A stretch of DNA of 64,000 bases, taken from Candidatus Komeilibacteria bacterium RIFOXYD1_FULL_37_29 (lineage in GTDB: Bacteria > Patescibacteriota > Patescibacteriia > UBA1558 > GWA2-36-10). Both the position numbers and the translations under genes were made by a program. The first letter of the stretch is position 1, and every line of letters begins with the position of its first letter. The notes below the pieces were generated by a model that had not been told where the DNA came from, did no database searches, and saw only the letters and a program-made list of their open reading frames with translations. The DNA is taken from the NCBI GenBank assembly GCA_001818495.1, contig MHKS01000005.1:402584-466583 (forward strand), written 5' to 3'. Shown here one piece after another: positions 946 through 24,810 of the stretch.

Positions 946-2832
946 ATGACTATTATTAATATAAAACTAGTGAAGAACAATACAAAGATTGCTATTTTTA
1001 GCCTTTTTGTCTTATTTTGGGCTACCAATGTCAAAGCTTTTACTCAAACTTATACTCCGACCGATCCAAATTTGGTTTATCAAAAGTATTTAGATATGAT
1101 AAATATTGGTCCTAGCTGGTCCAGTGAGCTTAAGTTAAACAAAGAAGTGGTAGTGGCGGTGCTTGATTCTGGAGTGGATTTGGATCATCCAGATTTGGTC
1201 AATAATATTTGGGTAAATGCAGGTGAAATAGCCGGCGATGGTGTGGACAATGATAAAAATTCTTATATTGATGATGTACACGGTTGGGATTTTATTTATT
1301 CTGATGGTGATCCGCAGCCAGATATTGATGGTGAATATGATTTTACAGCGGTTAATCACGGCACCGTAGTGGCCGGAGTGATTGCTGCTACTATTAATCA
1401 AAACGGTATTGTGGGTATTGCTCCTCAAGCAAAGATAATGCCGATTAAAATTTTAGACACCGATGGAACCGGTAATGTCATGGTATTAACGCAAGCGATT
1501 GATTATGCTGTAGAAAACGGAGCGGATGTTATAAATCTGAGTTTAGTGGGGGATACTTATAATGATAATTTAAAAGAGGCAATAATTAATGCTTATAATA
1601 AAGGAGTGATGATTGTCGCTGCTTCTGGAAACGAAGAAAATATCGGTTTGAGTTTGGATATTGATCCGCGCTATCCGATTTGTGAATTGGATAATGTCAA
1701 TCGAGTTTTAGGGGTAGCCGCGGTGGATAGCCACAAAGTTTTAGCTGATTTTTCCAACCATGGTGAAGCTTGTATTGATATTTCTGCTCCTGGTACTGAA
1801 TTTTATTCTACAGTTTTTCAAGACAATTCTAATGAGGTATTTAAAAAATATTATTTAGGTGGTTGGAACGGCACGTCAGTAGCTGCTCCAGTAGTAGCCG
1901 CTACAGCCGCTCTTATCAAAGGGGCATTCCCAGAGTTAAGGCCCTATGATATCTACAATATAATAATCTCCAATGCTACAGATATTAGTGTCCAAAATCC
2001 TATTCACAGTGTTGATTTGGGGGCAGGACTTATCAATGTCGGTCAGGCTCTTAATGCGGCTCAGGACTATTATAATAATTCTCTGAATATAGTTTTGGCT
2101 CCGCAAAAAGGCCTAAAGCCAGAAATACTTTTGCTTGATACGGAAGCCAAATTATTAGAGGTCTTTTTGGCTTATAATGTCGGTTTCACAGGTGGTGTCA
2201 ATGTAGCAGTTGGTGATGTTGATGGTAATGGTCAGGACGAAATTGTGACTGCTCCAATGGCTGGTGGCGGTCCGCATATCAGAGTGTTTGATAAAGACGG
2301 TAATGTTTTGTCCGAATTTTTTGCTTATGACGCCAGCTTTGATGGTGGTGTCAATGTAGCCTTGGGGGATGTTAACAATGATGGTTTAGAAGAAATAGTT
2401 TTATCACCAATGGGCAAACATGTTTCCGAAATAAAAGTATTCAATTATCAGAATAGTCAAAAGGCCAGTTGGTTGGCTTATGACAGCAAAATGACAGCGG
2501 GCGTAAATATATCAGTCGCTGATGTCAACCTTGATGGCTGGCCAGAAATAGTGACTGTACCAGCTAAAAATTATGCTCCCACTGTTAAGGCCTTTAGTAT
2601 GAATGGTCGTCTCAAATCTGAATTTTTAGCCTTTAGCAATGCTTTAACCACTGGCGTAAAAATTTTGGCCAAAGATATATCGGGCGATGGTTTACCAGAA
2701 ATTTTAGTTTGGCCCACCAAAGGAGCAGCCGCCTTACTGCGAGTTTATGATCACAATGGATTAGAGAAAGACAATTTTTATTTAAGAGACGCCCAGGATA
2801 GAAATGGTTATAATCTGGAATTAATAAAATAG
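946..2832 (+). CDS. Secreted subtilisin-like serine protease (peptidase S8) with C-terminal FG-GAP/VCBS-like repeats
   Basis: There is an N-terminal hydrophobic signal/anchor segment. The S8 catalytic triad contexts are present: VAVLDSGVDLDHPDL (Asp), NHGTVVAGVIAA (His), GTSVAAPVVAATAALIKG (Ser). Four C-terminal repeats follow the FG-GAP pattern: DVDGNGQDEIVTAP, DVNNDGLEEIVLSP, DVNLDGWPEIVTVP, DISGDGLPEILVWP. Confidence 0.8.
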   Translation: MTIINIKLVKNNTKIAIFSLFVLFWATNVKAFTQTYTPTDPNLVYQKYLDMINIGPSWSSELKLNKEVVVAVLDSGVDLDHPDLVNNIWVNAGEIAGDGVDNDKNSYIDDVHGWDFIYSDGDPQPDIDGEYDFTAVNHGTVVAGVIAATINQNGIVGIAPQAKIMPIKILDTDGTGNVMVLTQAIDYAVENGADVINLSLVGDTYNDNLKEAIINAYNKGVMIVAASGNEENIGLSLDIDPRYPICELDNVNRVLGVAAVDSHKVLADFSNHGEACIDISAPGTEFYSTVFQDNSNEVFKKYYLGGWNGTSVAAPVVAATAALIKGAFPELRPYDIYNIIISNATDISVQNPIHSVDLGAGLINVGQALNAAQDYYNNSLNIVLAPQKGLKPEILLLDTEAKLLEVFLAYNVGFTGGVNVAVGDVDGNGQDEIVTAPMAGGGPHIRVFDKDGNVLSEFFAYDASFDGGVNVALGDVNNDGLEEIVLSPMGKHVSEIKVFNYQNSQKASWLAYDSKMTAGVNISVADVNLDGWPEIVTVPAKNYAPTVKAFSMNGRLKSEFLAFSNALTTGVKILAKDISGDGLPEILVWPTKGAAALLRVYDHNGLEKDNFYLRDAQDRNGYNLELIK

Positions 2833-2835
2833 TTT

Positions 2836-3534
2836 ATGGAGATTAGTGTAGTTATTCCGGCTTTTAATGAGGTCAAAGACATAGCCAAAACCATTGCCGA
2901 TGTCGGTAGTTATTTAAAGAATCATTTTAGTAGTTTTGAAATAATAGTAGTAGATGACAAATCTAATGATCGTACTTTACAAATAATACAGAGTATTGAT
3001 GGTATTAGAGTTTTAAAAAACTTAAAGAATCATGGCAAGGGCTATGCCGTTGCTAAGGGAATGAAAGCCGCCACTGGTGATTTGTTACTTTTTATGGATG
3101 CTGACAACTCCACCAAAATAAGCGAATTGGACAATTTTTTGTCGGAGCTTAAAAATTATGATGTGGTGATTGCCTCACGGGGACTGAAAGATTCTAAAGT
3201 TACGGTTAGTCAAAATTTTTTAAAAACTAATTTAGGCAGAATGGGTAATTTTTTTAGTCGAATCTTGATTGATGAAAATATTCGAGATACTCAGTGTGGT
3301 TTTAAGCTTTTTAAAAAATCAGCCAAGCATTTATTTGATAAATTGACCATTGAAGGATTTGCTTTTGATTTCGAGTTGATTTTTTTGGCTAGAAAGTATA
3401 AGTTCAAGGTAAAAGAAATGCCGGTTGTCTGGGTAAACAATTTTAACTCGGCTGTTAGATGGTATGATTATCCCAAAACAATGCTCAATTTGATTGGTAT
3501 TAGAATTAATAATTTATTAGGAAAATATAATTAA
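2836..3534 (+). CDS. GT2 glycosyltransferase (dolichyl-/polyprenyl-phosphate sugar transferase-like)
   Basis: VVIPAFNE start, DAD (DxD) motif, about 230 aa; this is the DPM1/GtrB-like architecture. Confidence 0.7.
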   Translation: MEISVVIPAFNEVKDIAKTIADVGSYLKNHFSSFEIIVVDDKSNDRTLQIIQSIDGIRVLKNLKNHGKGYAVAKGMKAATGDLLLFMDADNSTKISELDNFLSELKNYDVVIASRGLKDSKVTVSQNFLKTNLGRMGNFFSRILIDENIRDTQCGFKLFKKSAKHLFDKLTIEGFAFDFELIFLARKYKFKVKEMPVVWVNNFNSAVRWYDYPKTMLNLIGIRINNLLGKYN

Positions 3535-5489: not shown

Positions 5490-6154
5490 TGAATATTTTT
5501 GTAATTATACCAGCTTATAATGAAGAAAAAAGAATCGGCCAAGTTTTGGACGATTTGTCTGTTTTTTCCTATCGATTAGTAGTTGTTGATGATGGATCAA
5601 CTGATAATACAGCGGGGGTAGTAGCGGCTTATCCCAAGGTAACTTTATTAAGGCACAAGATAAATCGTGATCAAGGAGCGTCTCTTCAAACTGGCAATCA
5701 ATATGCTCTTGGCGAGCAAGCTGATGTTATTGTTCATTTTGACGCTGATGGCCAATTTTTAGCTTCCGAAATAGAGGATATGGTCAAACCAATTTTAGAA
5801 GAAGGCTATGATATAGTCTTTGGTTCTAGATTTTTGAGCAAAAAATCCAAGCTGCCATTTTTAAAAAGACACATTATTTTTCCCTTAGCTCGCTTGGTTA
5901 ATAGATTGTTTTTGGGAGTTAAAACCAGTGATCCACAAAGTGGTTTTCGAGCTATGACCGCTCAGACAGCCAAAAGTATAAACATTGAGCAAGATGGTAA
6001 AGCCCATTGCTCGGAAATAATGGCCAAAGCTTTTGAACAAAAATTAAAAATAAAAGAAGTGCCGATTACGGTTATCTATAATAGATTTGGTCAGGGGATG
6101 GGACACGGTTTCAAAATTTTAAAGGATATTTTATTTTCTAAAATAAATAAATGA
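5486..6154 (+). CDS. GT2 glycosyltransferase (polyprenyl-phosphate sugar synthase-like)
   Basis: VIIPAYNEE, VVDDGSTDNT, DAD motif; its start overlaps the upstream gene by 4 nt (operon). Confidence 0.7.
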   Translation: MMNIFVIIPAYNEEKRIGQVLDDLSVFSYRLVVVDDGSTDNTAGVVAAYPKVTLLRHKINRDQGASLQTGNQYALGEQADVIVHFDADGQFLASEIEDMVKPILEEGYDIVFGSRFLSKKSKLPFLKRHIIFPLARLVNRLFLGVKTSDPQSGFRAMTAQTAKSINIEQDGKAHCSEIMAKAFEQKLKIKEVPITVIYNRFGQGMGHGFKILKDILFSKINK

Positions 6155-6483
6155 TTTATTTGCAAATTTTACTAACTATCTTTATAGTCTTTATACTTTT
6201 TAAACTGTTTTTACAAAAGCAGAAGAGCCAAATATCTCTGATGTCTTTTTTAATTTGGGTTTTGCTATGGCTAGTGGTACTAGTGGTTTTTTGGTTGCCA
6301 GACTCTACTAGTTATTTGGCCGCTTGGTTGGGTATTGGCCGCGGCGCAGATCTAGCAGTTTATATTTCTATTGTAGTTATTTTTTATATGATTTTTAGAA
6401 TTTTTGTGCGCTTAAATAAGATCGATGAAAATATTACTAAATTGGTAAGAGATGAGGCTATAAAAAATGTTAAAGAAAAGTAA
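6151..6483 (+). CDS. Small polytopic membrane protein (DUF2304/GtrA-like partner of GT2)
   Basis: 110 aa with 3-4 hydrophobic helices; sits directly downstream of, and overlapping, a GT2 gene. Confidence 0.4.
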   Translation: MIYLQILLTIFIVFILFKLFLQKQKSQISLMSFLIWVLLWLVVLVVFWLPDSTSYLAAWLGIGRGADLAVYISIVVIFYMIFRIFVRLNKIDENITKLVRDEAIKNVKEK

Positions 6484-7519
6484 AATATTTATTATCATTC
6501 TTTCCTATAACGGCCGGCAGTATTTTGATGAATTGTTTCCCAATTTGTTGGGAGAAAAATATCAGGATTTGGATGTGCAAATTTTGGTGATAGACAATAA
6601 TTCTACTGATGGATCAGCGGACTATATTAATAGAAATTATCCGGAGGCCAAGGTAATCAGGCAAAAAGAAAATATTGGTTTTGCTGGAGCCAATAATCTT
6701 GGCTATCAGTACGCCAAGGAAAATCAGGCGGATTATATCTATCTACTCAATCAGGATACGGTAGTCACCAGCGGTTTTTTGCGTCCCCTTTATGATTTTG
6801 CCAAGAAAAATAAATTTGGCTCTTTACAATCCAAGCTTCTTTTATGGCCCGATAAAAATAAAATAAATACTATCGGTAATGCTATACATTTTTTGGGTTT
6901 TGGCTATGGACAAGGGGCTAGTCAGATAGATAATCAGCCGCTAGAAATCGTCAAGATAAATTATGCTTCCGGAGCCGGAGTCTTTATATCAATGCACGCT
7001 TTAGATGATTTGGGTTATCTTTTTGACGAAACTATGTTTATGTATTTGGAAGATTTAGATTTGGGTTGGTCCTTAAATATGCTCGGTTATGACAATTATT
7101 TGATACCCAATAGCGTGGTTTACCACAAATATGAATTCAAGCGCAGTATGAAATTATTTTATTGGTTTGAAAGAAATCGTCTGTGGGTGATGCTAAAAAA
7201 TTATAAAATTGGCAGCCTGCTATTGATTTTTCCAGCTTGGCTGATTATGGAGCTTGGCCAATTGGGCTTTACTGTAACTAACGGTAGATTTTGGTCAAAA
7301 ATTAAAGCTTATGGTTTTTTATTTTCTCCTGAACAAATGAAAATACTAATGAAAAAAAGAAAATATATCCAATCTAAACGTCAGCGGAATGACCGGCAAG
7401 TAGTCGGTAAATTTACTGGGATGATTTTATTTCAGCCATTGGATTTGCGGTTGTTAAAAGTAGCCAATGTATTTTTCTTTATTTATTGGCGCTTAGTTAA
7501 ATTATTTATTTTTTGGTAA
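6467..7519 (+). CDS. GT2 glycosyltransferase (rhamnosyltransferase-like)
   Basis: IIILSYNGRQYF, VIDNNSTDGS, DxD-type YLED motif. Confidence 0.65.
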   Translation: MLKKSKIFIIILSYNGRQYFDELFPNLLGEKYQDLDVQILVIDNNSTDGSADYINRNYPEAKVIRQKENIGFAGANNLGYQYAKENQADYIYLLNQDTVVTSGFLRPLYDFAKKNKFGSLQSKLLLWPDKNKINTIGNAIHFLGFGYGQGASQIDNQPLEIVKINYASGAGVFISMHALDDLGYLFDETMFMYLEDLDLGWSLNMLGYDNYLIPNSVVYHKYEFKRSMKLFYWFERNRLWVMLKNYKIGSLLLIFPAWLIMELGQLGFTVTNGRFWSKIKAYGFLFSPEQMKILMKKRKYIQSKRQRNDRQVVGKFTGMILFQPLDLRLLKVANVFFFIYWRLVKLFIFW

Positions 7520-12976: not shown

Positions 12977-13987
12977 TTGATTATGGAGCAGCAAATATTT
13001 AAAAAAGAATATACTCGTGATAATGCTTTGATTATCCAAGAGGTTTGGGGTAGAGCACATATGATAGATGTTGATGCTAATTCTAATCCTTACTTACCAA
13101 CGCAAGTAATTTATATTAACGATGGAGTAGCGGAAATTTGGAATAATGAGCGCTCCATCGAGTGGCTGGAAAGAAAATTACTGGAAAAAAATCAAACTGC
13201 TCCAGATTTTTTTTGGCAAAAAATGGAGGAATATGATAGACAGCTGGTTAATTTAAAAAAATATTGGCGAAAGCATCATTTAGATTCAGTGGCCGAACTA
13301 AGAGATTTTATTGGCTTGATGCGAGCCGCTACCAGAAATTTTTTAGTTTTTTATTATTCAGCTATCAGTCAAAAAACACCAGACAAGATAAAATCTCGGG
13401 CTTTAGAAATTCGGGAGCAAGATACTTTTTACGATGATTCCAATCGGCTGATCTTTAATACTTTAGAATACGTATATCCGGAAATAAAAGGTTTGGGCAT
13501 CACTGTATTAGAAAGAGATTTGAATCAATTTCCTAGTCCCCAGGAACTAAAAGAAAGATTTCAAAATTTTGTCTATATTACGGATGAAACGGCTGAGGCT
13601 ATAAATCTTAAAAAATTTTTAAGTAAGAACAAGCAATACAAATTTATTTTTAATCAAATAGAGGACCAGACTCAGGTTTTTGGTCAAGTAGCGCATCGGG
13701 GCAAAGTAAACGGGCGAGTGAGGATTTTAAAAAGAAAAAATCAAGTAGTTGAGTTTAAACCAGGTGAAATATTAGTTTCTCCTATGACTACTCCTGATTT
13801 TGTGCCAGCTATGAAGTTGGCGGCTGCTTTTGTCACTGACGAAGGAGGAATTGGTTGTCATGCCGCTATTTTAGCTAGAGAATTAAAAGTTCCTTGTGTG
13901 ATTGGTACTAGATTCGCTACCCAAGTTTTTAAAGACGGAGATATGGTGGAGGTGGATGCTGAGAAGGGCATCGTTAAAAAGATATAA
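12977..13987 (+). CDS. Paralog P1: novel N-terminal domain fused to a PEP-utilizing enzyme mobile (phospho-His swivel) domain
   Basis: C-terminal G.V.GRVRIL...PGEILVSPMTTPDFVPAMKLAAAFVTDEGGIGCHAAILARELKVPCVIGT, the PF00391-type phosphohistidine domain; the N-terminal roughly 230 aa have no recognisable family. Confidence 0.7.
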   Translation: MIMEQQIFKKEYTRDNALIIQEVWGRAHMIDVDANSNPYLPTQVIYINDGVAEIWNNERSIEWLERKLLEKNQTAPDFFWQKMEEYDRQLVNLKKYWRKHHLDSVAELRDFIGLMRAATRNFLVFYYSAISQKTPDKIKSRALEIREQDTFYDDSNRLIFNTLEYVYPEIKGLGITVLERDLNQFPSPQELKERFQNFVYITDETAEAINLKKFLSKNKQYKFIFNQIEDQTQVFGQVAHRGKVNGRVRILKRKNQVVEFKPGEILVSPMTTPDFVPAMKLAAAFVTDEGGIGCHAAILARELKVPCVIGTRFATQVFKDGDMVEVDAEKGIVKKI

Positions 13988-13991
13988 AACC

Positions 13992-15065
13992 ATGATTGAA
14001 GAAATAAAAAAATATAAATTAACAGCTTATGGTGGAGTAAAACGTAACCTTTCTTTATTTACTTATAGTTGCATAGGGCGGGCCTATGTGCACAGTATGA
14101 TAAAATTTGCCAAGGTAAGTTATGGTCCTATAGCTGCTTACGGTAATAAAGATTATTGGTATTCTTTGTTCAATATGAAATATTTGACTGATACGGTGGC
14201 TCAAAGCATGGAACGGGATAGTAGATGGTTGGACAAAGTAAGGAAAAAATCAATAGATAATTTTAATAAGTTTAAGATAAATTTTAATAGACAAATAAAA
14301 TTTGTTGAATCAAAGCCAATGGATTTTTTGGCTTGGATCATAAAAAATTATCCTGGTTATTTTGTCATTTTAGGATTGTATAATGGACTGTGGCGTTATA
14401 AGGAATATAGTAAGGATAGTCAGCCCGCCATAGATGATGGTAGTGTTGAAGAAATAGCCAAAGAAAGAAGTCAAGTAGCAATACTTTATCCTTTGGTGGA
14501 GAAGTACTTAAAAGAGGCTATTAAATCAATGTCTTTAAATATTGGTTTGGCAGAAATAGACTATCTATTATTGACCAGAGGAGAATTGCAACGTGTAGTG
14601 GAAAAAAAACTTATAAATAAAGAATTGCAAAGCTTAATAAAGAAAAGGGGCCAGGGGTATGTGTATTTATATAATGGTAATAGAGAAACGATTGTCTCTG
14701 ACCAAGAAATTTTAAAAAAAGTTAGAGACTACGCTATCCCTAAAATAAAAAATGTAAGTATTTTGCAAGGCACAGTAGCTTATAGTGGTTTTGTTGATGG
14801 TACAGTAGTTTTTGATTTAAAAAAGATGCTAGATTATCGAAAGGCAGTTTATATTACAAACATGACTCATCCAGATGAAATACCGTGGCTTAAAAAAGTT
14901 TCAGCTATAGTAACAGATGAGGGGGGAGTATTGTCTCACGTGGCGATTATTGCAAGAGAACTTAAAATTCCTACACTTATGGGCACAAAAATTGCTACCC
15001 AAGTTTTTAAAGACGGTGATATGGTAGAGGTTGACGCTATTAAAGGAATAGTAAAGAAAATATAA
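13992..15065 (+). CDS. Paralog P2: divergent N-terminal domain plus PEP-utilizing mobile domain
   Basis: TDEGGVLSHVAIIARELKIPTLMGT. The track ORF starts at 13902 and would overlap P1; the in-frame ATG at 13992, just after the P1 stop, is the more likely start. Confidence 0.65.
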   Translation: MIEEIKKYKLTAYGGVKRNLSLFTYSCIGRAYVHSMIKFAKVSYGPIAAYGNKDYWYSLFNMKYLTDTVAQSMERDSRWLDKVRKKSIDNFNKFKINFNRQIKFVESKPMDFLAWIIKNYPGYFVILGLYNGLWRYKEYSKDSQPAIDDGSVEEIAKERSQVAILYPLVEKYLKEAIKSMSLNIGLAEIDYLLLTRGELQRVVEKKLINKELQSLIKKRGQGYVYLYNGNRETIVSDQEILKKVRDYAIPKIKNVSILQGTVAYSGFVDGTVVFDLKKMLDYRKAVYITNMTHPDEIPWLKKVSAIVTDEGGVLSHVAIIARELKIPTLMGTKIATQVFKDGDMVEVDAIKGIVKKI

Positions 15066-15075
15066 ATAAAATAAT

Positions 15076-16128
15076 ATGGCGGATACATTAGATAGTTTAA
15101 AAAAATACCACTGGAAGTCAATTTGGGCTGGGGATTGGACAATAATGCCGTGCTCTGATTGGGGTGAACATTATATTACCACGTTGAGGGTCAATGGGGA
15201 GCCATTTGTTAGGCGAGTAGTATTTATATTTGAAAATGGAAAAAGCTCATGCTGGGTGACAGAAGAGGATATTTCGGTATTTCATGACAGAATGATAAAG
15301 ATGGTGGATGATAAAATGTCCAATGTTAACATCTTGGCTAATAATCTGGTACAAGCGGCCAAAGCAGCTTTAGAATACATGGATGAGAATAAAAATTTTA
15401 TAGATTACGAAACGTATAATAGGTATCGGGAGATCATACGTACTTATTATAATGCTCATATGCCGGTAAAGTATTTTGCTGATGCTTTGACTGGTCAGCA
15501 ACTGGAAGAGTTTTTACCAATTTTACAAAAAGCCAGAGTAGAGGCTGAGTCAGTATTCACAAATACTATTTTATTTGACAAGATGATTGTCAAAAATATT
15601 GGGGAAAAAACTGGGATAGCAGAAGGGCTATTATTAAATACCACTAGAGATGAGTTATTGCATATATGGAGGAATAAAGCGCCTTTGCCAAAAGACATAA
15701 AACAACGGCATTCATTTTCAGCTTTAGTATTTGAAAATAAAGATCCAAAATTATTTGTTGGTAATAAAGCTAAAGAAATATTAGCTACTTTAGCCAGAGT
15801 AGACACTAAAGAAAATATTGTAGGTAGCACAGCTTATCCGGGTAAGATTGTGGGTAGAGTAAAAATTGTTTTAGACCCAACTAATGTTAGAGATTTTCGT
15901 CAGGGCGATGTTTTAGTTACACGTATGACTAGACCAGAATTTTTACCTTTAATGAAAATGGCTTCTGGTTTTGTGACCGATGCCGGTGGTATTTTAAGTC
16001 ATGCCGCTATCACAGCCAGAGAATTAAAAAAACCATGTATAATTGGAACTAAAGTAGCTACCCAAGTTTTTAAAGACGGTGATATGGTAGAGGTTGACGC
16101 TATTAAAGGAATAGTAAAGAAAATATAA
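15076..16128 (+). CDS. Paralog P3: divergent N-terminal domain plus PEP-utilizing mobile domain
   Basis: [25 protein letters not shown]; the last 73 nt are identical to the P2 3' end. Confidence 0.7.
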
Positions 16129-16129
16129 A

Positions 16130-17149
16130 ATGGATATAGATTTTGACTACAGTTTAGAATATGAAAGACATCAAAGGGACTATTCTATTTTAGGGACCAC
16201 TATTGTTTTTCGAGGATTATTTAAACAAAATGCTAGATTTTTTGGTGTTATCCCTAATCCTGTTTATTTTTTGGTTAAGGACGATATTTTATATCATTAT
16301 ATGGCGAAAAAAGATGGCGTCAGCCGAATGGAAAATTGGCTTAAGAAAAATGATCTGAATTCATTTAAAAAAATAGAAAAGTTTTATTCTGCTCGCTTGA
16401 AAGAATTTAATAAATTTATATTAAAACAGCCAGAAAATTTAGAACTGGCTATTAAGCAAGCCGAGGAGTTTTTTGTTGATTTTACGGAAATAATCCTTTT
16501 GGGGTATGAATTACCTCTTTATATGAAAGATAAAGCATCTTCAGAGATTATAGATTTTGCTTTAGCTAGTAGGGAAAAATATGAAAATGTCCATAAGATA
16601 AACTTTTCCATTATAGAAAAACTATTGAATCAGCTGGAAAAAAACAGAGACATACCCAAGGACACTTTAAAATATTTAACCATTGAGGAATTGGAAGATT
16701 TTTTACGGAACAATAAATTAGCAGATATTGGATATAGAAAAAAGTATATTGTAGTTAAATATGATGGTAATTATTCCTTTTTTTATGATCCTAATCTTTG
16801 GAATATTTTAAATCCTAAAGTAGCTAGAGATTTTGTCAAAGGAAATACTGCTTATAAAGGGATAGTCAGGGGGACTGTTAAGATTATTAAAAAAATTACA
16901 GAAGCAGCCGAGTTAAAAAAGGGACAAATTTTAATAACTAGTATGACTGATCCGCGCTATGTACCAGCTATGAAAAAAGCCGCAGCGATTGTCACTGACG
17001 AGGGTGGTATAACTTGTCATGCTGCTATAGTGTCTCGGGAATTAAAAATACCTTGTGTAATAGGGACAAAAGAAGCTACTCAAGTATTTAAAGACGGAGA
17101 TATGGTGGAAGTTGATGCTAATCAGGGAATAGTGAGAAAAATAAAGTAA
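16130..17149 (+). CDS. Paralog P4: divergent N-terminal domain plus PEP-utilizing mobile domain
   Basis: [25 protein letters not shown]. Confidence 0.7.
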
Positions 17150-19724: not shown

Positions 19725-20015
19725 ATGTCGAAATTAAATATAAAACCATCAGCCGAAGGTAAGGTTAATAAAAAAATTGACCAAGAATCTAAATTAGATA
19801 AATTAAATAAGATCTTAGACCATATTAGACCAGCCTTAGAAAGAGATGGCGGTAATTTAGCTCTAATCAGTTATGATGCTAAAAAGGGGATAGTGGAAGT
19901 CAGCTTTCAAGGTGCTTGTGCTCATTGTTCCTTGGCCAATGTCACTTTAAAGCATTTGATTGAGGCAGAAATTAGAGATCAGATGCCAGAAGTCAAAGAA
20001 GTAAGAGCAGTTTAA
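19725..20015 (+). CDS. NifU-like (Nfu C-terminal domain) Fe-S cluster scaffold/carrier protein
   Basis: GGNLALISYD..GIVEVSFQGACAHCSLANVTLKHLIEAEI; the CxxC Nfu signature. Confidence 0.7.
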   Translation: MSKLNIKPSAEGKVNKKIDQESKLDKLNKILDHIRPALERDGGNLALISYDAKKGIVEVSFQGACAHCSLANVTLKHLIEAEIRDQMPEVKEVRAV

Positions 20016-20040
20016 TTTTCAAAATTTTAGACAAAAGGAA

Positions 20041-20078
20041 AAGCGGCGACATATTGTGTGTGTCGCCGCTTTGTTTTT
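20041..20078. terminator. Bidirectional rho-independent terminator between the convergent nifU-like gene (+) and the GC-rich phosphatase-like gene (-)
   Basis: 11-bp stem aagcggcgaca/tgtcgccgctt, loop tattgtgtg; T-runs on both strands. Confidence 0.6.
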
Positions 20079-20092
20079 AGTCCGTTGGGGGA

Positions 20093-20671
20093 CTACTCTT
20101 CGATCCAGACGGCTTTGATCGAGCCGTCGTCGTATAGGTTGAAGCGAATCGCTTCCATGGAGTTGAGGCTGCGGGCCTCGGTCATGCCGATGGACTTTGC
20201 CAACATCGGAATGGTGGGATCGTGGAAGATCCCGACACCGATCTGGCCGTCGTTCATCAGGTCGAACATCTTTCGTAGAGCACTCTGAGCGTCGCTCTTA
20301 AACTGATCGAAAACTGACGGATCCATGTGTTTGAGCACAGCCTCCATATTAGAGAGGCCGTCTTTGATGTCGGCGCGCATGGCGTCAGTGATAGTCTTCT
20401 GGAAGAATTCGGCGGAGCCGAGGCCGTCAACGGCATCGTGGATTTCCATCTCCTGGAAGGGGTCGGACATCATCCGCATGGCGGCGAGAGTCTCACTGGT
20501 GCGGATCAGCGGTCCGTGGAAACCGTGGGAGATCTTGGTGTCGGATGTGTTGTACAGTCTGTCACCGGTGTTGTAGGCCAATTCGGCCCCGGCATGAGAA
20601 ATGTGGTTTCCGCTTTTATCCTTATCGGAGTGGCGGAACAAGTCCAGAGTTTTTACAACAAACTTGGCCAT
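20093..20671 (-). CDS. Histidine-phosphatase-superfamily-like protein encoded in a GC-rich islet
   Basis: LFRHSDKD (an RHG-like RHS variant), HGPLIRTSETLAAM, C-terminal IFHDPT. Local GC is far above the flanks, and several overlapping stop-free frames on both strands are typical of high-GC DNA. Confidence 0.5.
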   Translation of the reverse strand: MAKFVVKTLDLFRHSDKDKSGNHISHAGAELAYNTGDRLYNTSDTKISHGFHGPLIRTSETLAAMRMMSDPFQEMEIHDAVDGLGSAEFFQKTITDAMRADIKDGLSNMEAVLKHMDPSVFDQFKSDAQSALRKMFDLMNDGQIGVGIFHDPTIPMLAKSIGMTEARSLNSMEAIRFNLYDDGSIKAVWIEE

Positions 20672-20722
20672 TTGTGGGCCTCCTTTGTAAAATTATGAGT
20701 GTACACACCATAAATATAGGTG

Positions 20723-20743
20723 ATCCTTGAGTTATTCAAGGAT
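20723..20743. promoter_or_regulatory. Perfect inverted repeat ATCCTTGA-N5-TCAAGGAT in the divergent promoter region
   Basis: Seen directly. It lies about 50 nt upstream of the (-) phosphatase-like gene start and about 130 nt upstream of the wHTH-containing P5 gene; candidate operator. Confidence 0.35.
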
Positions 20744-20820
20744 ATATTAGTATAGCACATTATCCTATTTTAGTCAATATTAGTTATTAGTCTATAATAT
20801 AGTTAAAAATACTATAAATA

Positions 20821-20849
20821 TTGACATTTTTACTATATAATGCTAGACT
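20821..20849 (+). promoter_or_regulatory. Candidate sigma70-type promoter of P5 (TTGACA-N17-TAGACT)
   Basis: Consensus -35 TTGACA at 20821..20826; 17-nt spacer; weak -10 TAGACT. Confidence 0.3.
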
Positions 20850-20872
20850 GCCTTATTAAATCATAAAATAAT

Positions 20873-22681
20873 ATGTTGGAAAAAATTATCAATTCTAAAA
20901 CTCGTTTGGCTATATTGGCTATGTTTTTTCAAGGCAAAGAAACAGAATTATCGGCTAGTCAGATAGTCAAAAAAAGCAAACTTGATCCAGCCAATGTCCA
21001 TAAGGAAATTAGTAATCTATTGGCTGGTAAATTTATTTTGCAAAAAGAGGCCATGGGGCGTAAATATTTTTGTGTGAATACAGGTACTGTATTTTATGAT
21101 GGTTTGGTAAAGATATTTAAAAATTATAAAATTAATCAATTTGGTGAAGAATGGTTTTCGCTAGAATCAGTACCAAATTATTATCCAATGATGGTGGCTT
21201 TTGCTTGGAATGTAAAGCGAGCTAATGATTTTTTAAAAAGTCGTGGTTTTAAAAATAAGTTTACCAAATTGTTGACTACTTATGACAACAATATTAATGA
21301 TTTGTTAATCATTAAAAAAGAATTTGATGCTTTATCCCAAGAAACTTTGGAAAAAGTTAGTTTTGATCCCAGTTGGGGACAGCAATATATTGATGATTTA
21401 TCAGCCGAGGTTGATAATTTAATTAAAGCTACTAATGATTTAGAGAAAGTAAATTTAGGAAAATTATCCAATAAAGAATTGTATGATTTATATCAGGAGT
21501 ATTATGCTGTCTATGGCCAACTTCATATTTTTCACTGGATTCAAACCGTAGCGGATTTTGGTGATAATCTTTTTTCCAAATATTTAATGAATTATTTGCG
21601 TCAGAAGATCAAAGACAGCCAATATTCTTTGGGGGAAGTATTTTCTACTTTGACGACTCCTACTAAAGATGGTGAAACGACTAAAGAATATAAAAATTTA
21701 TTAAATATTTTAGAGGACATAATTTCGGATCAAGATTTAAAAAAATATTTTAAAGATACAGAAACTCGTATTATTGTTCGCGATTTAAAAAATGTCAATA
21801 AGGTTATGGATGAAAAAATTTTAAATCACGTTACGAGGTATGGTTATCTTGGCTATGGTACAGTCGGACCTAACTGGGGTAAAGATTATTTTATTGATAT
21901 TTTAGGCTCTTTAGTCAGACAAAATACCAAGCCAGCTGAGTTGCTTGATAATTTGCAGAAAGATAAGTTAAATATTGAAGTCAAGCAACAAAAATTTATT
22001 AAACAACTGGAGATAGAGGAGAAATATCAGCAATTATTTGAAGTAGCCAGAGGTTTAGTTTTCACCAAGGGTAGCCGTAAAGAGTCCATGTTTCATAGCT
22101 ATAGTATTATAGACCATTTATTTAGAGAAATCGGTCGTCGTTATTATTTATCGGTTAATCAAGTCAGATATTTCTATCCTCATGAATTTGAAGATTTATT
22201 GCTTCATAATAAATTTAGTGCCGCTAAATTAAATGAGCGTTATAAATTTAGTTTGCAGTATTCCCTAGGTGATTATAGTCAGGATAAATTATTAGAAGAT
22301 GAGGAAGCTAGAAAATTTTTAGAAAATTTTAATATTGTCAAAGAGGAAATTGCTGATATTAAAGTAATGGAAGGAGACTGTGCTTCTCCTGGTCGGGCTC
22401 GTGGTAGCGCCAAAATTATCAATATACCCAAAGATATGAGTAAAATGGAGCAAGGTGATGTTCTGGTATCTATTGCTACTAACCCCGATTTAGTGCCAGC
22501 TATTAAGAAAGCTAGTGCTATTGTCACCGATGTCGGGGGCATTACCTGTCATGCCGCTATAGTGTCTCGAGAATTGGGTATTCCTTGTGTTATTGGTACC
22601 AAAATAGCCACTAAAGTCTTAAAAGACGGTGATGTGGTAGATGTGGACGCTACCCATGGTAAAGTTACGATTGTCCGGTAG
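20873..22681 (+). CDS. Paralog P5: N-terminal winged-helix (MarR/ArsR-like) DNA-binding domain, long central region, C-terminal PEP-utilizing mobile domain
   Basis: N-terminus TRLAILAMFFQGKETELSASQIVKKSKLDPANVHKEISNLLAGKFI (wHTH pattern); C-terminus GDCASPGRARGSAKII...[49 protein letters not shown]. Confidence 0.65.
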   Translation: MLEKIINSKTRLAILAMFFQGKETELSASQIVKKSKLDPANVHKEISNLLAGKFILQKEAMGRKYFCVNTGTVFYDGLVKIFKNYKINQFGEEWFSLESVPNYYPMMVAFAWNVKRANDFLKSRGFKNKFTKLLTTYDNNINDLLIIKKEFDALSQETLEKVSFDPSWGQQYIDDLSAEVDNLIKATNDLEKVNLGKLSNKELYDLYQEYYAVYGQLHIFHWIQTVADFGDNLFSKYLMNYLRQKIKDSQYSLGEVFSTLTTPTKDGETTKEYKNLLNILEDIISDQDLKKYFKDTETRIIVRDLKNVNKVMDEKILNHVTRYGYLGYGTVGPNWGKDYFIDILGSLVRQNTKPAELLDNLQKDKLNIEVKQQKFIKQLEIEEKYQQLFEVARGLVFTKGSRKESMFHSYSIIDHLFREIGRRYYLSVNQVRYFYPHEFEDLLLHNKFSAAKLNERYKFSLQYSLGDYSQDKLLEDEEARKFLENFNIVKEEIADIKVMEGDCASPGRARGSAKIINIPKDMSKMEQGDVLVSIATNPDLVPAIKKASAIVTDVGGITCHAAIVSRELGIPCVIGTKIATKVLKDGDVVDVDATHGKVTIVR

Positions 22682-22747
22682 ACAAGCAGTCTATTGGACT
22701 TTTTGTTTTAGGCATACTAAAATTAAGATAAATATTACTTAATTACT

Positions 22748-23686
22748 ATGGAATTAATTAGAGATTTTAAAAAATTGGACAAACACGCTGTTGCTTTGGC
22801 TGGCGGAAAAGGGGCCTCTCTGGGCGAGATGACCAAAGCCGGTATTCCGGTGCCACCGGGATTTGTAGTGTTATCAGCTGCTTTTGAAAAATTTTTAGAG
22901 GAAACTGATCTAAATGTTGAAATTGATGCTGTTATAAAAACAGTCAAACACGAAGATATAAATCTAGTAGAGCAGGCCTCGGTTAAAATCAGGGATTTAA
23001 TCAGTGACGCCCAGATGCCGGACGATATAGCCAAAGAAATAAAAGCAGAGTTTAAAAAAATGGATGCTAAATATGTAGCGGTGCGTTCTTCAGCCACTGC
23101 TGAGGACTCTTCAGTAGCTTCTTGGGCCGGAGAATTAGAATCATATCTTAATACCACTGAAAAAGATTTATTAGATAAAGTCAAAAAATGTTGGTCTTCA
23201 CTTTTTACACCGCGGGCTATTTTTTATCGTTTTGAAAAAAAACTTCAAGATGCCAAAGTTTCTGTAGCCGTAGTAGTGCAGAAAATGGTGCAATCAGAAG
23301 TATCGGGGATTACTTTTACAGTTCATCCGGTCACCGAAGACAGAGACCAGATGGTGATTGAGGCAGGTTGGGGACTAGGAGAGGCTATTGTTTCCGGCAT
23401 GGTGACACCTGATGCTTATGTGATTGATAAAAAAGATTTCTCTATTATGGATATAAATATTGCTGATCAAGCTAAAAAAATTATAAAAACTCCCAAGGGT
23501 AATCAATTTGTAGAAGTAGAGCATAATAAAAGAGAAGAACAAAAATTGGGCGGTGTTCAGATTATAGAGCTGGCCAAAATTTGTGCTGGCATTGAAAAAC
23601 ATTATGGCTTTCCCTGTGATATTGAGTGGGCTTATGAAAAGGGTGATTTTTATATAGTCCAGTCTCGGCCGATTACTACTTTATAA
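22748..23686 (+). CDS. Stand-alone PEP synthase/pyruvate phosphate dikinase N-terminal ATP-binding (ATP-grasp) domain protein
   Basis: VALAGGKGASLGEMTKAGIPVPPGFVV and VAVRSSATAEDSSVASWAGELESYLN, the hallmark PPDK_N (PF01326) motifs. 312 aa with no His or TIM-barrel domain. Confidence 0.75.
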   Translation: MELIRDFKKLDKHAVALAGGKGASLGEMTKAGIPVPPGFVVLSAAFEKFLEETDLNVEIDAVIKTVKHEDINLVEQASVKIRDLISDAQMPDDIAKEIKAEFKKMDAKYVAVRSSATAEDSSVASWAGELESYLNTTEKDLLDKVKKCWSSLFTPRAIFYRFEKKLQDAKVSVAVVVQKMVQSEVSGITFTVHPVTEDRDQMVIEAGWGLGEAIVSGMVTPDAYVIDKKDFSIMDINIADQAKKIIKTPKGNQFVEVEHNKREEQKLGGVQIIELAKICAGIEKHYGFPCDIEWAYEKGDFYIVQSRPITTL

Positions 23687-23704
23687 ATTTTATACAAAAG
23701 AAAA

Positions 23705-23735
23705 AAGCCCTGTGTTTAGACAGGACTTTTTTTAT
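23705..23735. terminator. Bidirectional terminator between convergent genes
   Basis: aaaaaagccctgtgtttagacaggacttttttt; hairpin flanked by A-run and T-run. Confidence 0.55.
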
Positions 23736-23754
23736 TCGCGGTGTTGGCGAATTT

Positions 23755-24246
23755 TTAGGCTTCAGTTTCGCCAAGTTGTTCGAGAATCGAACAACCGAGT
23801 TCATCGTTGTCATCGATGGTAATCTCTACGACCGAGCCACTTTTGGCAACTTCGATACCCAGAGATTTGGCGAAAGGTCGGCCGGTGCAGAGCACGGCCT
23901 GATCAGGCAGAGAGCGGAGAAAGTTGTGGATGGCCGGAGCCATGTCCTGGATGCCGGTGTATTGCTCGTACCAGCAGGCGGTGCCGTCGGCAAATATGAT
24001 GGTCGGATTGCCGTCGATGGTATCCATCGATGTGGCGTCTCCTAAGAGGAGAGTAGAGCGGGTCATTTCCAGACCTAATGTGGCGGCAACGTGCCGATGT
24101 CGGCGACCAGTACCACATATGATGGCAGAAGGGTTGTCAGGGAGTAAGTCCTTTAGAGACTCAATTTGATTTACTCCGGAAGGAGTCATAGTTGGGTCAG
24201 CACCTTCGTGCTTGTCGCCGTGTAAAACCGCATAAATCGTCTTCAT
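23755..24246 (-). CDS. SixA-like phosphohistidine phosphatase-family protein in a GC-rich islet, with the catalytic Arg replaced (LHG instead of RHG)
   Basis: IYAVLHGDKHEG...MTPSGVNQIESL...GTGRRHRHVAATL aligns to the SixA N-terminal pattern (RHG...LT..G..Q...S...RA..TA). High local GC with overlapping stop-free frames. Confidence 0.45.
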   Translation of the reverse strand: MKTIYAVLHGDKHEGADPTMTPSGVNQIESLKDLLPDNPSAIICGTGRRHRHVAATLGLEMTRSTLLLGDATSMDTIDGNPTIIFADGTACWYEQYTGIQDMAPAIHNFLRSLPDQAVLCTGRPFAKSLGIEVAKSGSVVEITIDDNDELGCSILEQLGETEA

Positions 24247-24450
24247 TTTGTGGCCTCTTCCTTATTTTTAGAATTGTAGTGTACTTGATTGTAATATTCT
24301 ATTATAACATGCTTTAGCTATTTTGTCAATGTGCGAACCGATTTATCTATTTAGGTCGGGGGCGGTCTTTTTTTATTGACATTTTTGTGTAAAACTGATG
24401 AAATATTGGGTAGATTTTTTGTAAATAATATGCTAAAATAAAGACACAAT

Positions 24451-24810
24451 ATGTCTATTATCCGCACCAGCCGAGTATTATATCAAGATAAATTGGCCTT
24501 TTGGTTGATTAATTTTTCAATTTTATCCATAGTATCCACCTGGGCGCTTTTTTTATTTAAAAGAGTAGAGCGTGATCCATTGGCCGTACTGCACTATAAT
24601 ATCTACGCTGGCATAGACGCTTTGGGGTCGTGGCAATGGCTTTATCTATTACCAGCCATTTTTTTGTTGATAGCGGCTTTAGATTTTTGGTTGGCTGTTT
24701 TATTGTGGACTAAGGCTAGAGTACTGAGCTATTTTTTATTAGCCACCATTTTGATTATGAATTTTTTTATGTCTTTATTTATCTATAATATATTAAATTA
24801 TAATTCCTAA
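24451..24810 (+). CDS. Hypothetical small membrane protein
   Basis: 119 aa with three hydrophobic segments; immediately upstream of mraY. Confidence 0.35.
   Translation: MSIIRTSRVLYQDKLAFWLINFSILSIVSTWALFLFKRVERDPLAVLHYNIYAGIDALGSWQWLYLLPAIFLLIAALDFWLAVLLWTKARVLSYFLLATILIMNFFMSLFIYNILNYNS

What the first reader, a model, noticed from the sequence alone, without database searches (positions are those of the whole stretch)
20700..22681. Transcription-factor-like member of the family: wHTH fused to a phospho-His swivel domain, next to a perfect operator-like palindrome
P5 (602 aa) begins with a MarR/ArsR-type winged helix (TRLAILAMFFQGKETELSASQIVKKSKL...NLLAGKFI) and ends in the phosphorylatable swivel domain. 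A perfect inverted repeat ATCCTTGA-N5-TCAAGGAT (20723..20743) lies in the divergent intergenic region between P5 and the GC-rich phosphatase-like gene.

The fusion suggests DNA binding controlled by His phosphorylation, or by ligand binding to the long central domain. That would be a regulatory mode distinct from two-component or PTS-EI-type regulation. This functional reading is inference.
Basis: partly seen in the sequence, partly recalled or inferred. Interest (0 to 1): 0.7.

Follow-up and report, generated by a model that had tools for sequence, protein, structure and literature searches.

The report
DNA-binding dikinase subunit with own operator
A tiny symbiotic (candidate-phyla-radiation) bacterium fuses a DNA-binding winged helix to the phosphate-carrying half of a two-part, rifampin-phosphotransferase-like kinase, probably to control its own promoter.

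Summary
The sequence facts are correct. P5 (20873..22681, 602 aa) has an N-terminal ArsR/SmtB-type winged helix, confirmed at fold level. It has a C-terminal phospho-His swivel domain (GGITCH, His560). ATCCTTGA-N5-TCAAGGAT sits at 20723..20743.

The interpretation needs two corrections.

First, P5 is not only a regulator. Its middle part resembles the substrate-binding domain of rifampin phosphotransferase, and the ATP-grasp partner is the next gene (22748..23686). One relative has that partner fused in place of the winged helix. P5 therefore looks like the HpeH/PpsA-type subunit of a two-component small-molecule dikinase with a DNA-binding head.

Second, the flagged palindrome is probably not P5's operator. 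It starts at +1 of the divergent GC-rich gene's promoter. In relatives it travels with that gene even when P5 is elsewhere. Its loop varies from 5 to about 10 nt, and its stem shows compensatory changes. Its imperfect pairs are G·U only on the transcribed strand. It is best read as a 5'-terminal mRNA hairpin.

A different inverted repeat, TATAGTA-N5-TACTATA, plus a third half-site, flanks the -35 of P5's own promoter (20798..20837). It is conserved in about 25 orthologous loci and absent from 12 loci with winged-helix-less relatives.

This is a new variant of known kinds. DNA binding and its control are inferred, not shown.

The parts
20873..21133 (+). P5 residues 1-87: ArsR/SmtB-type winged helix-turn-helix. 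Helices 9-20, 28-35 and 39-51 (recognition helix, DPANVHKE), wing strands 55-60 and 63-68, helix 75-87.
21149..22342 (+). P5 residues about 93-490: mostly helical central domain, a candidate substrate-binding domain resembling the rifampin-binding domain of RPH.
22361..22678 (+). P5 residues 497-602: phospho-His swivel (PEP-utilizers mobile) domain. The catalytic His560 codon is 22550..22552, within [12 protein letters not shown].
   Evidence: PF00391, E 4.6e-24. About 60% identity to the swivel domain of archaeal PEP synthase 8a8e. His560 invariant.
20798..20816 (.). Candidate P5 operator: inverted repeat TATAGTT-AAAAA-TACTATA. The family consensus is T[AT]T[AT]GTA-N5-TAC[ACT]A[TC]A. It ends 4 nt upstream of the -35.
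   Evidence: Aligned promoters of 27 orthologues. 22 of 49 strict matches in 285 kb fall within the 3.6 kb upstream of P5 orthologues. Per-locus table. Absent upstream of 12 winged-helix-less relatives. The only site in the window with 1 mismatch or fewer.
20821..20849 (+). Predicted P5 promoter: -35 TTGACA (20821..20826), third operator half-site TACTATA inside the spacer (20831..20837), extended -10 TGcTAGACT (20841..20849).
   Evidence: Promoter scan, 10 of 12 matches plus TG. The spacer half-site [TA]AC[ACT]A[TCG]A is conserved at a fixed distance from the -35 in about 21 loci.
20723..20743 (-). Read on the minus strand it is the 5'-terminal stem-loop (hairpin 1) of the GC-rich gene's mRNA.
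   Evidence: It begins 5-6 nt after the -10 of the minus-strand promoter. Every orthologous leader folds this way. Across leaders: 56 Watson-Crick, 6 G·U and 2 mismatched pairs on the sense strand, against 56, 1 and 7 on the antisense strand; compensatory changes at 4 of 8 pairs; loop of 5 to about 10 nt.
20672..20722 (-). Rest of the leader: hairpin 2 (20706..20722, CACC...GGTG; CCCTA...TAGGG in relatives), conserved TGTACA box (20700..20705), strong Shine-Dalgarno AAGGAGG (20680..20686).
   Evidence: Leader alignment and folds. No Rfam family matches.
20749..20777 (-). Promoter of the GC-rich gene: -35 TTGACT (20772..20777) and extended -10 TGcTATACT (20749..20757).
   Evidence: Promoter scan, 10 of 12 matches plus TG. 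Conserved in relatives as TTGACA-17-TGaTATACT or TGaTATAAT.
20093..20671 (-). GC-rich histidine-phosphatase-like gene (192 aa; motifs RHSDK and HGPLIRTSET). This gene owns the palindrome-bearing leader.
   Evidence: GC3 0.74 against 0.26-0.30 in neighbours. Only 8 homologues, all from Patescibacteria; P0090 carries PF00300.
22748..23686 (+). PPDK_N ATP-grasp protein (312 aa): the likely ATP-binding partner of P5 and of the four other swivel paralogues in the window.
   Evidence: PF01326, E 1.5e-101. NCBIfam aligns it to the N-terminal third of PEP synthase and RPH. It directly follows the P5 orthologue in about 15 loci.
22673..22699 (+). Stem-loop plus T-run overlapping the P5 stop codon. Its 3' arm, TTGGACT, doubles as a -35-like box for PPDK_N.
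   Evidence: Terminator scan. Conserved with compensatory changes in the 5' arm in L001, L003, L088, L109 and L111.

Best explanation
P5 is a bifunctional enzyme and regulator.

Enzyme part. Residues about 93-602 form the substrate-binding plus phospho-histidine-carrier subunit of a two-component, rifampin-phosphotransferase-type dikinase, like HpeH, PpsA or CreH. The ATP-grasp subunit is the PPDK_N protein encoded immediately downstream. By analogy with those enzymes, the ATP-grasp protein presents ATP and His560 on the swivel domain is pyrophosphorylated. The gamma-phosphate is then lost, and the swivel domain carries the remaining phosphate to a still unknown small-molecule substrate bound in the central domain.

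Regulator part. Residues 1-87 are an ArsR/SmtB-type winged helix. This head most likely binds the conserved inverted repeat TATAGTA-N5-TACTATA and a third half-site. These bracket the -35 box of P5's own promoter (20798..20837), giving autoregulation, most probably repression. The enzyme's state (substrate bound, or His560 phosphorylated) may modulate binding.

The flagged palindrome. ATCCTTGA-N5-TCAAGGAT is not part of this circuit. It is the DNA image of a 5'-terminal stem-loop in the mRNA leader of the divergent GC-rich histidine-phosphatase-like gene.

Status of each step:
- Shown computationally: domain folds, catalytic motif, gene adjacency, the fusion protein, and conservation of both DNA elements.
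- Inferred: kinase activity, DNA binding, the sign of regulation, and any coupling between the enzyme's state and DNA binding.
For: Architecture:
- Swivel domain PF00391 with invariant His560.
- The whole model (pLDDT 85) best matches rifampin phosphotransferase over about 600 columns: E 2e-14 and TMq 0.46. Swivel-only matches reach at best 3e-6 and TMq 0.17.

Partner:
- PPDK_N lies directly downstream in the window and in about 15 orthologous loci.
- P0077 (859 aa) is PPDK_N fused to a 47%-identical copy of P5 residues 94-601, so the winged helix is a swappable head.
- The two-component precedent (HpeHI, PpsAB, CreHI) has the same motif, GGxT[S/C]HAA, close to the C-terminus (PMC12167813).

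Operator:
- The inverted repeat sits at a fixed position next to the TTGACA of the P5 promoter in about 20 of 27 loci. In the clade with THRE in the recognition helix (L005, L098, L106, L108) the same repeat lies downstream of the -10 instead. That argues against a mere promoter element.
- Enrichment is about 60-fold: 22 hits in 3.6 kb, against 27 in the remaining 282 kb.
- There are no hits upstream of 12 winged-helix-less relatives.
- The same winged-helix subtype heads about 190-200 aa nucleotidyltransferase proteins, so it is a mobile N-terminal module; whether it acts as a DNA-binding head in those proteins was not tested.

Palindrome as RNA:
- See, summarised in the parts list.
Against: - No experiment exists. 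DNA binding, kinase activity and the substrate are all unknown.
- In P5 itself the Pfam HTH score is below threshold.
- The window's own repeat has one mismatch (TATAGTT).
- The repeat is A/T-rich and lies where an UP element would lie.
- The loose correlation between residue 39 of the recognition helix (Pro/Ala against Gln) and the half-site (TAGTA against TTGTA) cannot be separated from shared ancestry.
- A conserved stem-loop and T-run between P5 and PPDK_N suggests that in this clade P5 may regulate mainly itself.
- For the palindrome, two identical copies at +1 of two promoters in L002 would also fit an operator of some other factor.
Confidence: 0.5

Rival explanations
1. The P5 winged helix binds ATCCTTGA-N5-TCAAGGAT as an operator and represses the divergent GC-rich phosphatase-like gene. 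Binding is switched by His560 phosphorylation or by a ligand.
For: The palindrome overlaps +1..+21 of the GC-rich gene's predicted promoter, a classic repressor position. Its 8-5-8 geometry suits a winged-helix dimer. It is conserved in the close clade and occurs twice in L002. P5 is the only DNA-binding-type protein seen in the locus.
Against: The palindrome follows the GC-rich gene, not P5, in L111 and L115. Arms and spacer change (ATTCTGAG-N10-CTCAGGAT) while the P5 recognition helix is unchanged. All imperfect pairs are G·U on the transcribed strand only. It shares no sequence with the repeat that is conserved at P5's own promoter across the family.
Confidence: 0.1
2. The palindrome is a DNA or RNA site for another, unidentified factor that co-regulates the set of GC-rich cassettes as a small regulon. 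It is not simply a passive stabilising hairpin.
For: The same two-hairpin leader precedes two unrelated GC-rich genes in L002. A GUACA(C/A) box and similar Shine-Dalgarno and start contexts are shared by leaders of all three GC-rich gene families. The first five nucleotides, AUUCU (AUCCU in the window), are conserved.
Against: No candidate factor is encoded nearby. The variation in loop length and stem sequence fits structure better than sequence recognition. No Rfam family matches.
Confidence: 0.2
3. The winged helix of P5 does not bind DNA. It would serve dimerisation, docking of the PPDK_N protein or another partner, or RNA binding. The repeat at the P5 promoter would then be bound by another protein or be a promoter (UP-like) element.
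For: Winged helices serve non-DNA roles in many enzymes (general knowledge). In P0077 the ATP-grasp domain occupies the position of the winged helix, which could mean the helix normally recruits that partner. The repeat is A/T-rich and sits at about -40 to -58.
Against: The domain is basic, and its best-conserved parts are the recognition helix and the wing lysines. The repeat is specific to promoters of winged-helix-bearing orthologues and moves to the +1 region in one clade. Other strong promoters in the same loci lack it.
Confidence: 0.2
4. P5 is a pure sensor. Its central domain binds a ligand but no longer transfers phosphate, and His560 phosphorylation by the PPDK_N protein serves only as a signal that sets DNA affinity, as in a one-protein phosphorelay.
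For: The genome has four more swivel paralogues without a winged helix that could do the chemistry. Only one paralogue per locus carries the winged helix.
Against: Winged-helix-less (P0034) and PPDK_N-fused (P0077) orthologues are 47-58% identical to P5 across the whole central domain, so the same function is likely. The central domain is as conserved as the swivel domain.
Confidence: 0.15

Closest known systems
Two-component small-molecule dikinases HpeHI, PpsAB (phenylphosphate synthase) and CreHI (PMC12167813)
   Same: The architecture is split in the same way. One protein carries a substrate-binding domain followed by a C-terminal swivel His domain (GGxT[S/C]HAA within 50 residues of the end). 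A separate protein of about 310-340 aa is the ATP-grasp (PPDK_N) subunit, encoded next to it. HpeH may dimerise, which would suit a DNA-binding head.
   Different: P5 has an extra N-terminal winged helix, which none of the described enzymes has. The described enzymes act on phenolics in aromatic catabolism, whereas P5's substrate is unknown and its host is a reduced-genome CPR bacterium. Two residues before the His, P5 keeps the PEP-synthase-type Thr (T-C-H), where HpeH and RPH have Met. One ATP-grasp gene here sits beside five swivel paralogues.
Rifampin phosphotransferase (RPH; PDB 5hv1, 5fbs, 5fbt, 5fbu; PMC4844700)
   Same: It is the best structural match of the whole P5 model. The domain order (substrate domain, then swivel His domain) is the same. 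The relative P0077 reproduces the full single-chain order of ATP-grasp, central and swivel domains.
   Different: RPH is a single chain with no DNA-binding domain. Sequence similarity outside the swivel domain is not significant on its own. Nothing indicates that rifampin is the substrate.
ArsR/SmtB-family winged-helix repressors (HlyU, PagR, SqrR, CzrA, SmtB, YgaV)
   Same: The fold is the same (three helices, a beta-hairpin wing, a C-terminal helix) and so is the size, about 85 residues. An inverted-repeat site at its own promoter is typical of autoregulated members.
   Different: No conserved Cys or His sensing site is present in residues 1-90. The sensing part would be a fused 500-residue enzyme instead of a metal or sulfur site. 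P5 itself scores below the Pfam thresholds.
Bifunctional enzyme-repressors such as BirA, NadR and PutA (own knowledge, not tested here)
   Same: An enzyme carries an N-terminal DNA-binding domain and represses its own operon. In those proteins the catalytic or ligand state sets DNA affinity.
   Different: The enzyme folds and chemistry are unrelated, and there is no homology. For P5 the coupling between enzyme state and DNA binding is only a hypothesis.
PTS-controlled regulators (PRD-containing activators and antiterminators) and Enzyme I (own knowledge for the regulators; Enzyme I)
   Same: Gene control is linked to a phospho-histidine, and the swivel domain is homologous to that of Enzyme I.
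   Different: P5 has no PRD, no EIIA/EIIB domain, and no PEP-binding C-terminal barrel. By analogy, phosphate would come from ATP through an ATP-grasp subunit, not from PEP.
5'-terminal stabilising stem-loops of bacterial mRNAs, such as the ompA and ermC leaders (own knowledge)
   Same: The flagged palindrome forms a stable hairpin within a few nucleotides of the predicted transcript 5' end. It is conserved as structure rather than sequence.
   Different: The function is untested here. A second hairpin and a conserved GUACA box follow it, so the leader may do more than stabilise the transcript.

Membership tests
ArsR/SmtB-type winged helix-turn-helix | Fold: helix-turn-helix with a beta-hairpin wing and flanking helices, about 80-100 residues | tested here: met
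ArsR/SmtB-type winged helix-turn-helix | Sequence-profile membership (Pfam HTH_5 or HTH_20 above the gathering score) | tested here: inconclusive
   P5 itself scores 16.2 bits for HTH_20, against a 27-bit cut-off. Homologue P0024 scores 26.8 for HTH_5 (cut-off 22) and P0070 scores 27.4 for HTH_20 (cut-off 27).
ArsR/SmtB-type winged helix-turn-helix | Binds an inverted-repeat operator as a dimer, usually at its own promoter | not testable with these tools
   Indirect only: a conserved 7-5-7 inverted repeat lies at the promoters of about 25 orthologues and is absent from 12 controls.
ArsR/SmtB-type winged helix-turn-helix | Metal- or thiol-sensing Cys/His site in helix 3 or helix 5 | tested here: not met
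   No conserved Cys, and only a partly conserved His43, in residues 1-90 of the 37-sequence alignment.
PEP-utilising enzyme mobile (swivel) domain | Pfam PF00391 above threshold | tested here: met
   84.3 bits against a 23.1-bit cut-off, residues 526-596.
PEP-utilising enzyme mobile (swivel) domain | Catalytic His in GGxT[S/C]HAA[IV][IV][AS]R | tested here: met
   [12 protein letters not shown] is present, and His560 is invariant in 37 sequences. The motif definition is from PMC12167813.
PEP-utilising enzyme mobile (swivel) domain | The His is actually phosphorylated | not testable with these tools
   Needs biochemistry.
Two-component RPH-type dikinase (HpeHI, PpsAB, CreHI) | Separate ATP-grasp (PPDK_N) subunit encoded beside the swivel subunit | tested here: met
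   The gene 22748..23686 matches PF01326 with E 1.5e-101. Adjacency is kept in about 15 loci. P0077 is a fused version.
Two-component RPH-type dikinase (HpeHI, PpsAB, CreHI) | Second substrate-binding domain with the fold of the RPH rifampin-binding domain, N-terminal to the swivel domain | tested here: inconclusive
Two-component RPH-type dikinase (HpeHI, PpsAB, CreHI) | ATP-dependent phosphorylation of a small molecule through His~P | not testable with these tools
   The substrate is unknown.
PEP synthase / PPDK / PTS Enzyme I proper | C-terminal PEP/pyruvate-binding TIM-barrel domain (PEP-utilizers_C) | tested here: not met
   No such Pfam hit in P5 or its neighbours. Matches to PEPS, PPDK and Enzyme I cover only the swivel domain.
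Structured 5' mRNA leader hairpin (for the flagged palindrome) | Lies inside the transcript, at or near +1 | tested here: inconclusive
   By prediction only. The hairpin starts 5-6 nt after a conserved extended -10. No transcript data are available.
Structured 5' mRNA leader hairpin (for the flagged palindrome) | Pairing conserved through compensatory and wobble changes on the transcribed strand | tested here: met
   Four of 8 pairs show double changes. The sense strand has 56 Watson-Crick, 6 G·U and 2 mismatched pairs; the antisense strand has 56, 1 and 7. The loop is 5 to about 10 nt. The set is small: 8 leaders, with few independent events.

The most novel reading that the evidence does not exclude
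P5 could be a new kind of one-protein signalling device: a transcription factor whose sensor is a complete dikinase half-reaction. DNA binding by the winged helix would be set by whether His560 carries phosphate, or by whether the central domain holds its substrate. It would thereby tune expression of itself and, where the two genes are co-transcribed, of the single ATP-grasp 'engine' shared by a battery of 5-10 swivel paralogues. CPR bacteria and DPANN archaea might use that battery to trap scavenged host metabolites by phosphorylation.
Probability: 0.25. Interest if true: 0.75.

Novelty: new variant of a known kind. Interest (0 to 1): 0.5.

Why it matters
Regulators of candidate-phyla-radiation bacteria are almost unknown, and these organisms cannot be grown alone. 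This work gives a testable pair: a protein (P5, about 80 close homologues, with the winged-helix subtype found in hundreds of clusters) and a precise DNA site at its own promoter.

It also extends the recently recognised two-component small-molecule dikinases from aromatic catabolism to ultra-small symbionts. There, one ATP-grasp gene sits beside arrays of swivel-domain paralogues, a large investment for a genome of about 1 Mb.

If the enzyme's state controls DNA binding, this would be a phospho-histidine-linked mode of gene control distinct from two-component systems and the PTS.

The correction matters as well. An EMSA on the flagged palindrome alone would probably have given a false negative for P5 as a DNA-binding protein.

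Tried and rejected
- Pfam and NCBIfam on P5 give only the swivel domain. The winged helix is sub-threshold in P5.
- The profile of the whole family appeared to align RPH over positions 266-601. A profile of the central domain alone found nothing. I therefore do not claim sequence homology for that domain.
- The first metagenome scan, with the P5 N-terminus as a single sequence, found nothing. The alignment-based scan gave 22 loci.
- The genome-collection scan was swamped by swivel domains and gave few true orthologues.
- Rfam found no family for the leader or anywhere in 19900..24500.
- The fold of the window's leader alone is not significant (z -1.4). Only the comparison between species supports the hairpin.
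- A search for the palindrome elsewhere in the window found none.
- A 2-mismatch copy of the P5-type repeat at 20752..20768 is not conserved in relatives and was treated as chance.
- The two GC-rich proteins are not detectably related to each other.
- There is no phage homologue of the GC-rich protein and no full-length plasmid homologue of P5.
- Literature searches found no description of a winged-helix-swivel fusion or of the GC-rich cassettes.
- I considered that the repeat is just an UP element. I rejected this as the main reading because it is promoter-specific and relocates to +1 in one clade.
Full report
**What is there**

The window comes from a low-GC (about 35%) Patescibacteria genome. 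An exact match of the neighbouring protein names it Candidatus Komeilibacteria bacterium RIFOXYC1_FULL_37_11. P5 is the ORF 20873..22681 (+), 602 aa. Pfam finds only the PEP-utilizers mobile domain at residues 526-596 (E 4.6e-24). The phospho-accepting His560 lies in [12 protein letters not shown] and is invariant in 37 homologues. The palindrome ATCCTTGA-GTTAT-TCAAGGAT is at 20723..20743, exactly as reported. A perfect 8-bp inverted repeat is not rare in itself: the window gives 36 hits, against 15 +/- 4 in simulations.

**The winged helix**

In P5 itself the best Pfam hit for residues 1-110 is HTH_20 at E 0.011, below threshold. Homologues P0024, P0070 and P0079 reach HTH_5, HTH_20 and HTH_IclR at E 1e-5 to 1e-6.

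The domain is basic, with mean net charge +4.9 and pI 9.3. Its most conserved parts are the recognition helix (D38, A40, N41, E45, L46, L49) and the KKYF wing. No Cys/His sensing site is conserved.

A profile of the N-terminus finds 479 clusters at E <= 1e-10. Besides proteins of about 600 aa like P5, these include many stand-alone proteins of 90-130 aa and proteins of about 190-200 aa. Two of the four proteins of that size that were scanned carry a minimal nucleotidyltransferase domain. It is a mobile N-terminal module.

**The rest of P5**

About 80 homologues of roughly 600 aa exist, nearly all labelled Patescibacteria. The full model's best PDB matches are the rifampin phosphotransferase structures 5hv1 and 5fbu (E 2e-14, TMq 0.46, about 600 aligned columns). 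Proteins that share only the swivel domain reach at best E 3e-6 and TMq 0.17.

Independent support comes from gene context. The next gene (22748..23686) is a stand-alone PPDK_N ATP-grasp protein (E 1.5e-101). It directly follows the P5 orthologue in about 15 loci. In P0077 a PPDK_N domain is fused to a 47%-identical copy of P5 starting precisely at residue 94, in place of the winged helix.

This is the architecture of the two-component dikinases HpeHI, PpsAB and CreHI. There the ATP-grasp subunit charges a C-terminal swivel His on the substrate-binding subunit (PMC12167813). P5 differs in keeping the PEP-synthase-type Thr in T-C-H, where HpeH and RPH have Met.

The window has four more swivel paralogues without a winged helix (12977, 13902, 15076, 16130) and only one PPDK_N gene. 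More distant loci have up to seven or more paralogues around one PPDK_N gene, plus His_Phos_1 or HAD genes.

**The flagged palindrome**

A near-consensus minus-strand promoter drives the GC-rich gene 20093..20671. Its -35 is TTGACT (20772..20777), followed by 17 nt and TGcTATACT, which ends at 20749. The palindrome begins 5-6 nt after the -10, that is at about +1 of that transcript.

It is conserved in the close clade (L001-L004, L109, L110). Four lines of evidence point to RNA.

1. It travels with the GC-rich gene. In L111 that gene is divergent from a different swivel paralogue, and in L115 from PPDK_N. The hairpin is still in its leader.
2. In L002 the same leader also precedes an unrelated GC-rich gene: two copies where 0.01 is expected.
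3. In L111, L087 and L115 the arms become ATTCTGAG/CTCAGGAT and the loop grows from 5 to about 10 nt. A rigid protein dimer would not tolerate this, and P5's recognition helix is unchanged.
4. Over eight leaders the stem has 56 Watson-Crick, 6 G·U and 2 mismatched pairs on the transcribed strand, against 56, 1 and 7 on the other strand. Double changes occur at 4 of 8 positions. Every leader folds with this hairpin at its 5' end, and most add a second hairpin.

No Rfam family matches. I read the palindrome as a 5'-terminal mRNA stem-loop, with a stabilising or regulatory role. An operator for some other factor is not excluded.

**A better operator candidate**

I aligned the promoters of 27 P5 orthologues on their TTGACA. 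About 20 show T[AT]T[AT]GTA-N5-TAC[ACT]A[TC]A ending 4-6 nt upstream of the -35. They also show a third half-site, [TA]AC[ACT]A[TCG]A, at a fixed place in the -35/-10 spacer.

In the window these are TATAGTT-AAAAA-TACTATA (20798..20816) and TACTATA (20831..20837). The -35 is at 20821..20826 and the TGcTAGACT -10 ends at 20849.

A strict pattern occurs 49 times in 285 kb of loci. Of these, 22 lie in the 3.6 kb just upstream of P5 orthologues, an enrichment of about 60-fold. In the clade whose recognition helix reads THRE, the same repeat lies downstream of the -10 instead. That argues for a protein site rather than a promoter element. Twelve loci encoding winged-helix-less relatives have no copy within 500 nt upstream. 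In the window it is the only site with 1 mismatch or fewer.

Sites flanking or overlapping core promoter elements suggest autorepression. This is inference.

**Limits**

A conserved stem-loop with a T-run overlaps the P5 stop codon (22673..22699), and its 3' arm resembles a -35 for PPDK_N. In this clade P5 may therefore control mainly itself. In more distant loci the two genes are only 5-30 nt apart. No tool here can show DNA binding, phosphotransfer or the substrate.

**Verdict**

P5 is a new variant of known kinds: a HpeH/PpsA-type dikinase subunit carrying an ArsR-type DNA-binding head, with a well-defined candidate operator at its own promoter. The flagged palindrome belongs to the neighbouring gene's mRNA leader. 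Interest is moderate (0.5). It would be higher if DNA binding proves to be set by His~P or by substrate.

Noticed in passing
window 20093..20671 (-) and 23755..24246 (-); L001 388..873, 1029..1601, 6191..6682; L002 1569..2231, 2431..3015, 6086..6580; L115 5001..5567: Small minus-strand genes, histidine-phosphatase-like, are strongly GC-rich (GC 0.46-0.64, GC3 0.49-0.90). They lie inside an AT-rich cluster whose neighbours have GC3 0.16-0.30. The composition is kept in orthologues from species whose P5 is only 71-77% identical. All 8 homologues are from Patescibacteria, and there is no high-GC donor and no phage match. Why the composition is maintained is unexplained.
   Followed up: partly
window, all ORFs of at least 120 aa; leaders at 20672..20690 and 24247..24265: The genome hardly uses Shine-Dalgarno sequences: 7 of 62 ORFs have even a 4-mer match. 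Both GC-rich genes nevertheless have strong ones with similar start contexts (AAAGGAGGCCCACAAATG and AAGGAAGAGGCCACAAAATG) and near-consensus extended -10 promoters. The promoter at 24329..24301 matches 12 of 12 positions plus TG.
   Followed up: partly
L002 2279..2299 and 3065..3085; leaders: The two-hairpin leader, including the palindrome, precedes two unrelated GC-rich gene families in one genome. A GUACA(C/A) box about 20-25 nt upstream of the Shine-Dalgarno sequence is shared by leaders of all three GC-rich families. This suggests a common regulon or a common mobile origin.
   Followed up: partly
window 12977..17149 and 20873..23686; L006, L007, L113: Tandem arrays of 4 to 7 or more PEP-utilizers (swivel) paralogues, with different N-terminal domains, sit beside a single PPDK_N ATP-grasp gene, often with His_Phos_1 or HAD genes. 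They are conserved across Patescibacteria. Central-plus-swivel relatives also occur in many MAGs labelled DPANN archaea.
   Followed up: partly
window 22673..22699: A stem-loop with a T-run overlaps the P5 stop codon. Its conserved 3' arm, TTGGACT, is also a -35-like box 17 nt upstream of TAAAAT, ahead of PPDK_N. The 5' arm changes in a compensatory way in relatives. It may be a terminator or attenuator combined with an internal promoter.
   Followed up: partly
P0134, P0156 and other proteins of about 190-200 aa: The same winged-helix subtype forms the N-terminus of many short proteins. Of those scanned, P0134 and P0156 carry a minimal nucleotidyltransferase (Polbeta/NTP_transf_2) domain. It also heads a 373-aa protein that ends in a swivel domain (P0116).
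   Followed up: partly
L009 6001..7788: A full-length P5 relative (39% identity, residues 2-602, winged helix included) lies on a contig of a MAG labelled Candidatus Micrarchaeota, an archaeon. The bacterial-type repeat and TTGACA are not evident upstream. This could be transfer between CPR and DPANN organisms, or a binning error.
   Followed up: no
window 20040..20072: A 15-bp stem terminator-like hairpin lies between the convergent NifU-like gene (19725..20015) and the GC-rich gene. It is probably a bidirectional terminator.
   Followed up: no
window 22544..22552 (T558-C559-H560): The swivel motif keeps the Thr that is the regulatory phosphorylation site in PEP synthase and PPDK. RPH and HpeH have Met at that position. 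No PEP synthase regulatory protein (DUF299) was looked for.
   Followed up: no
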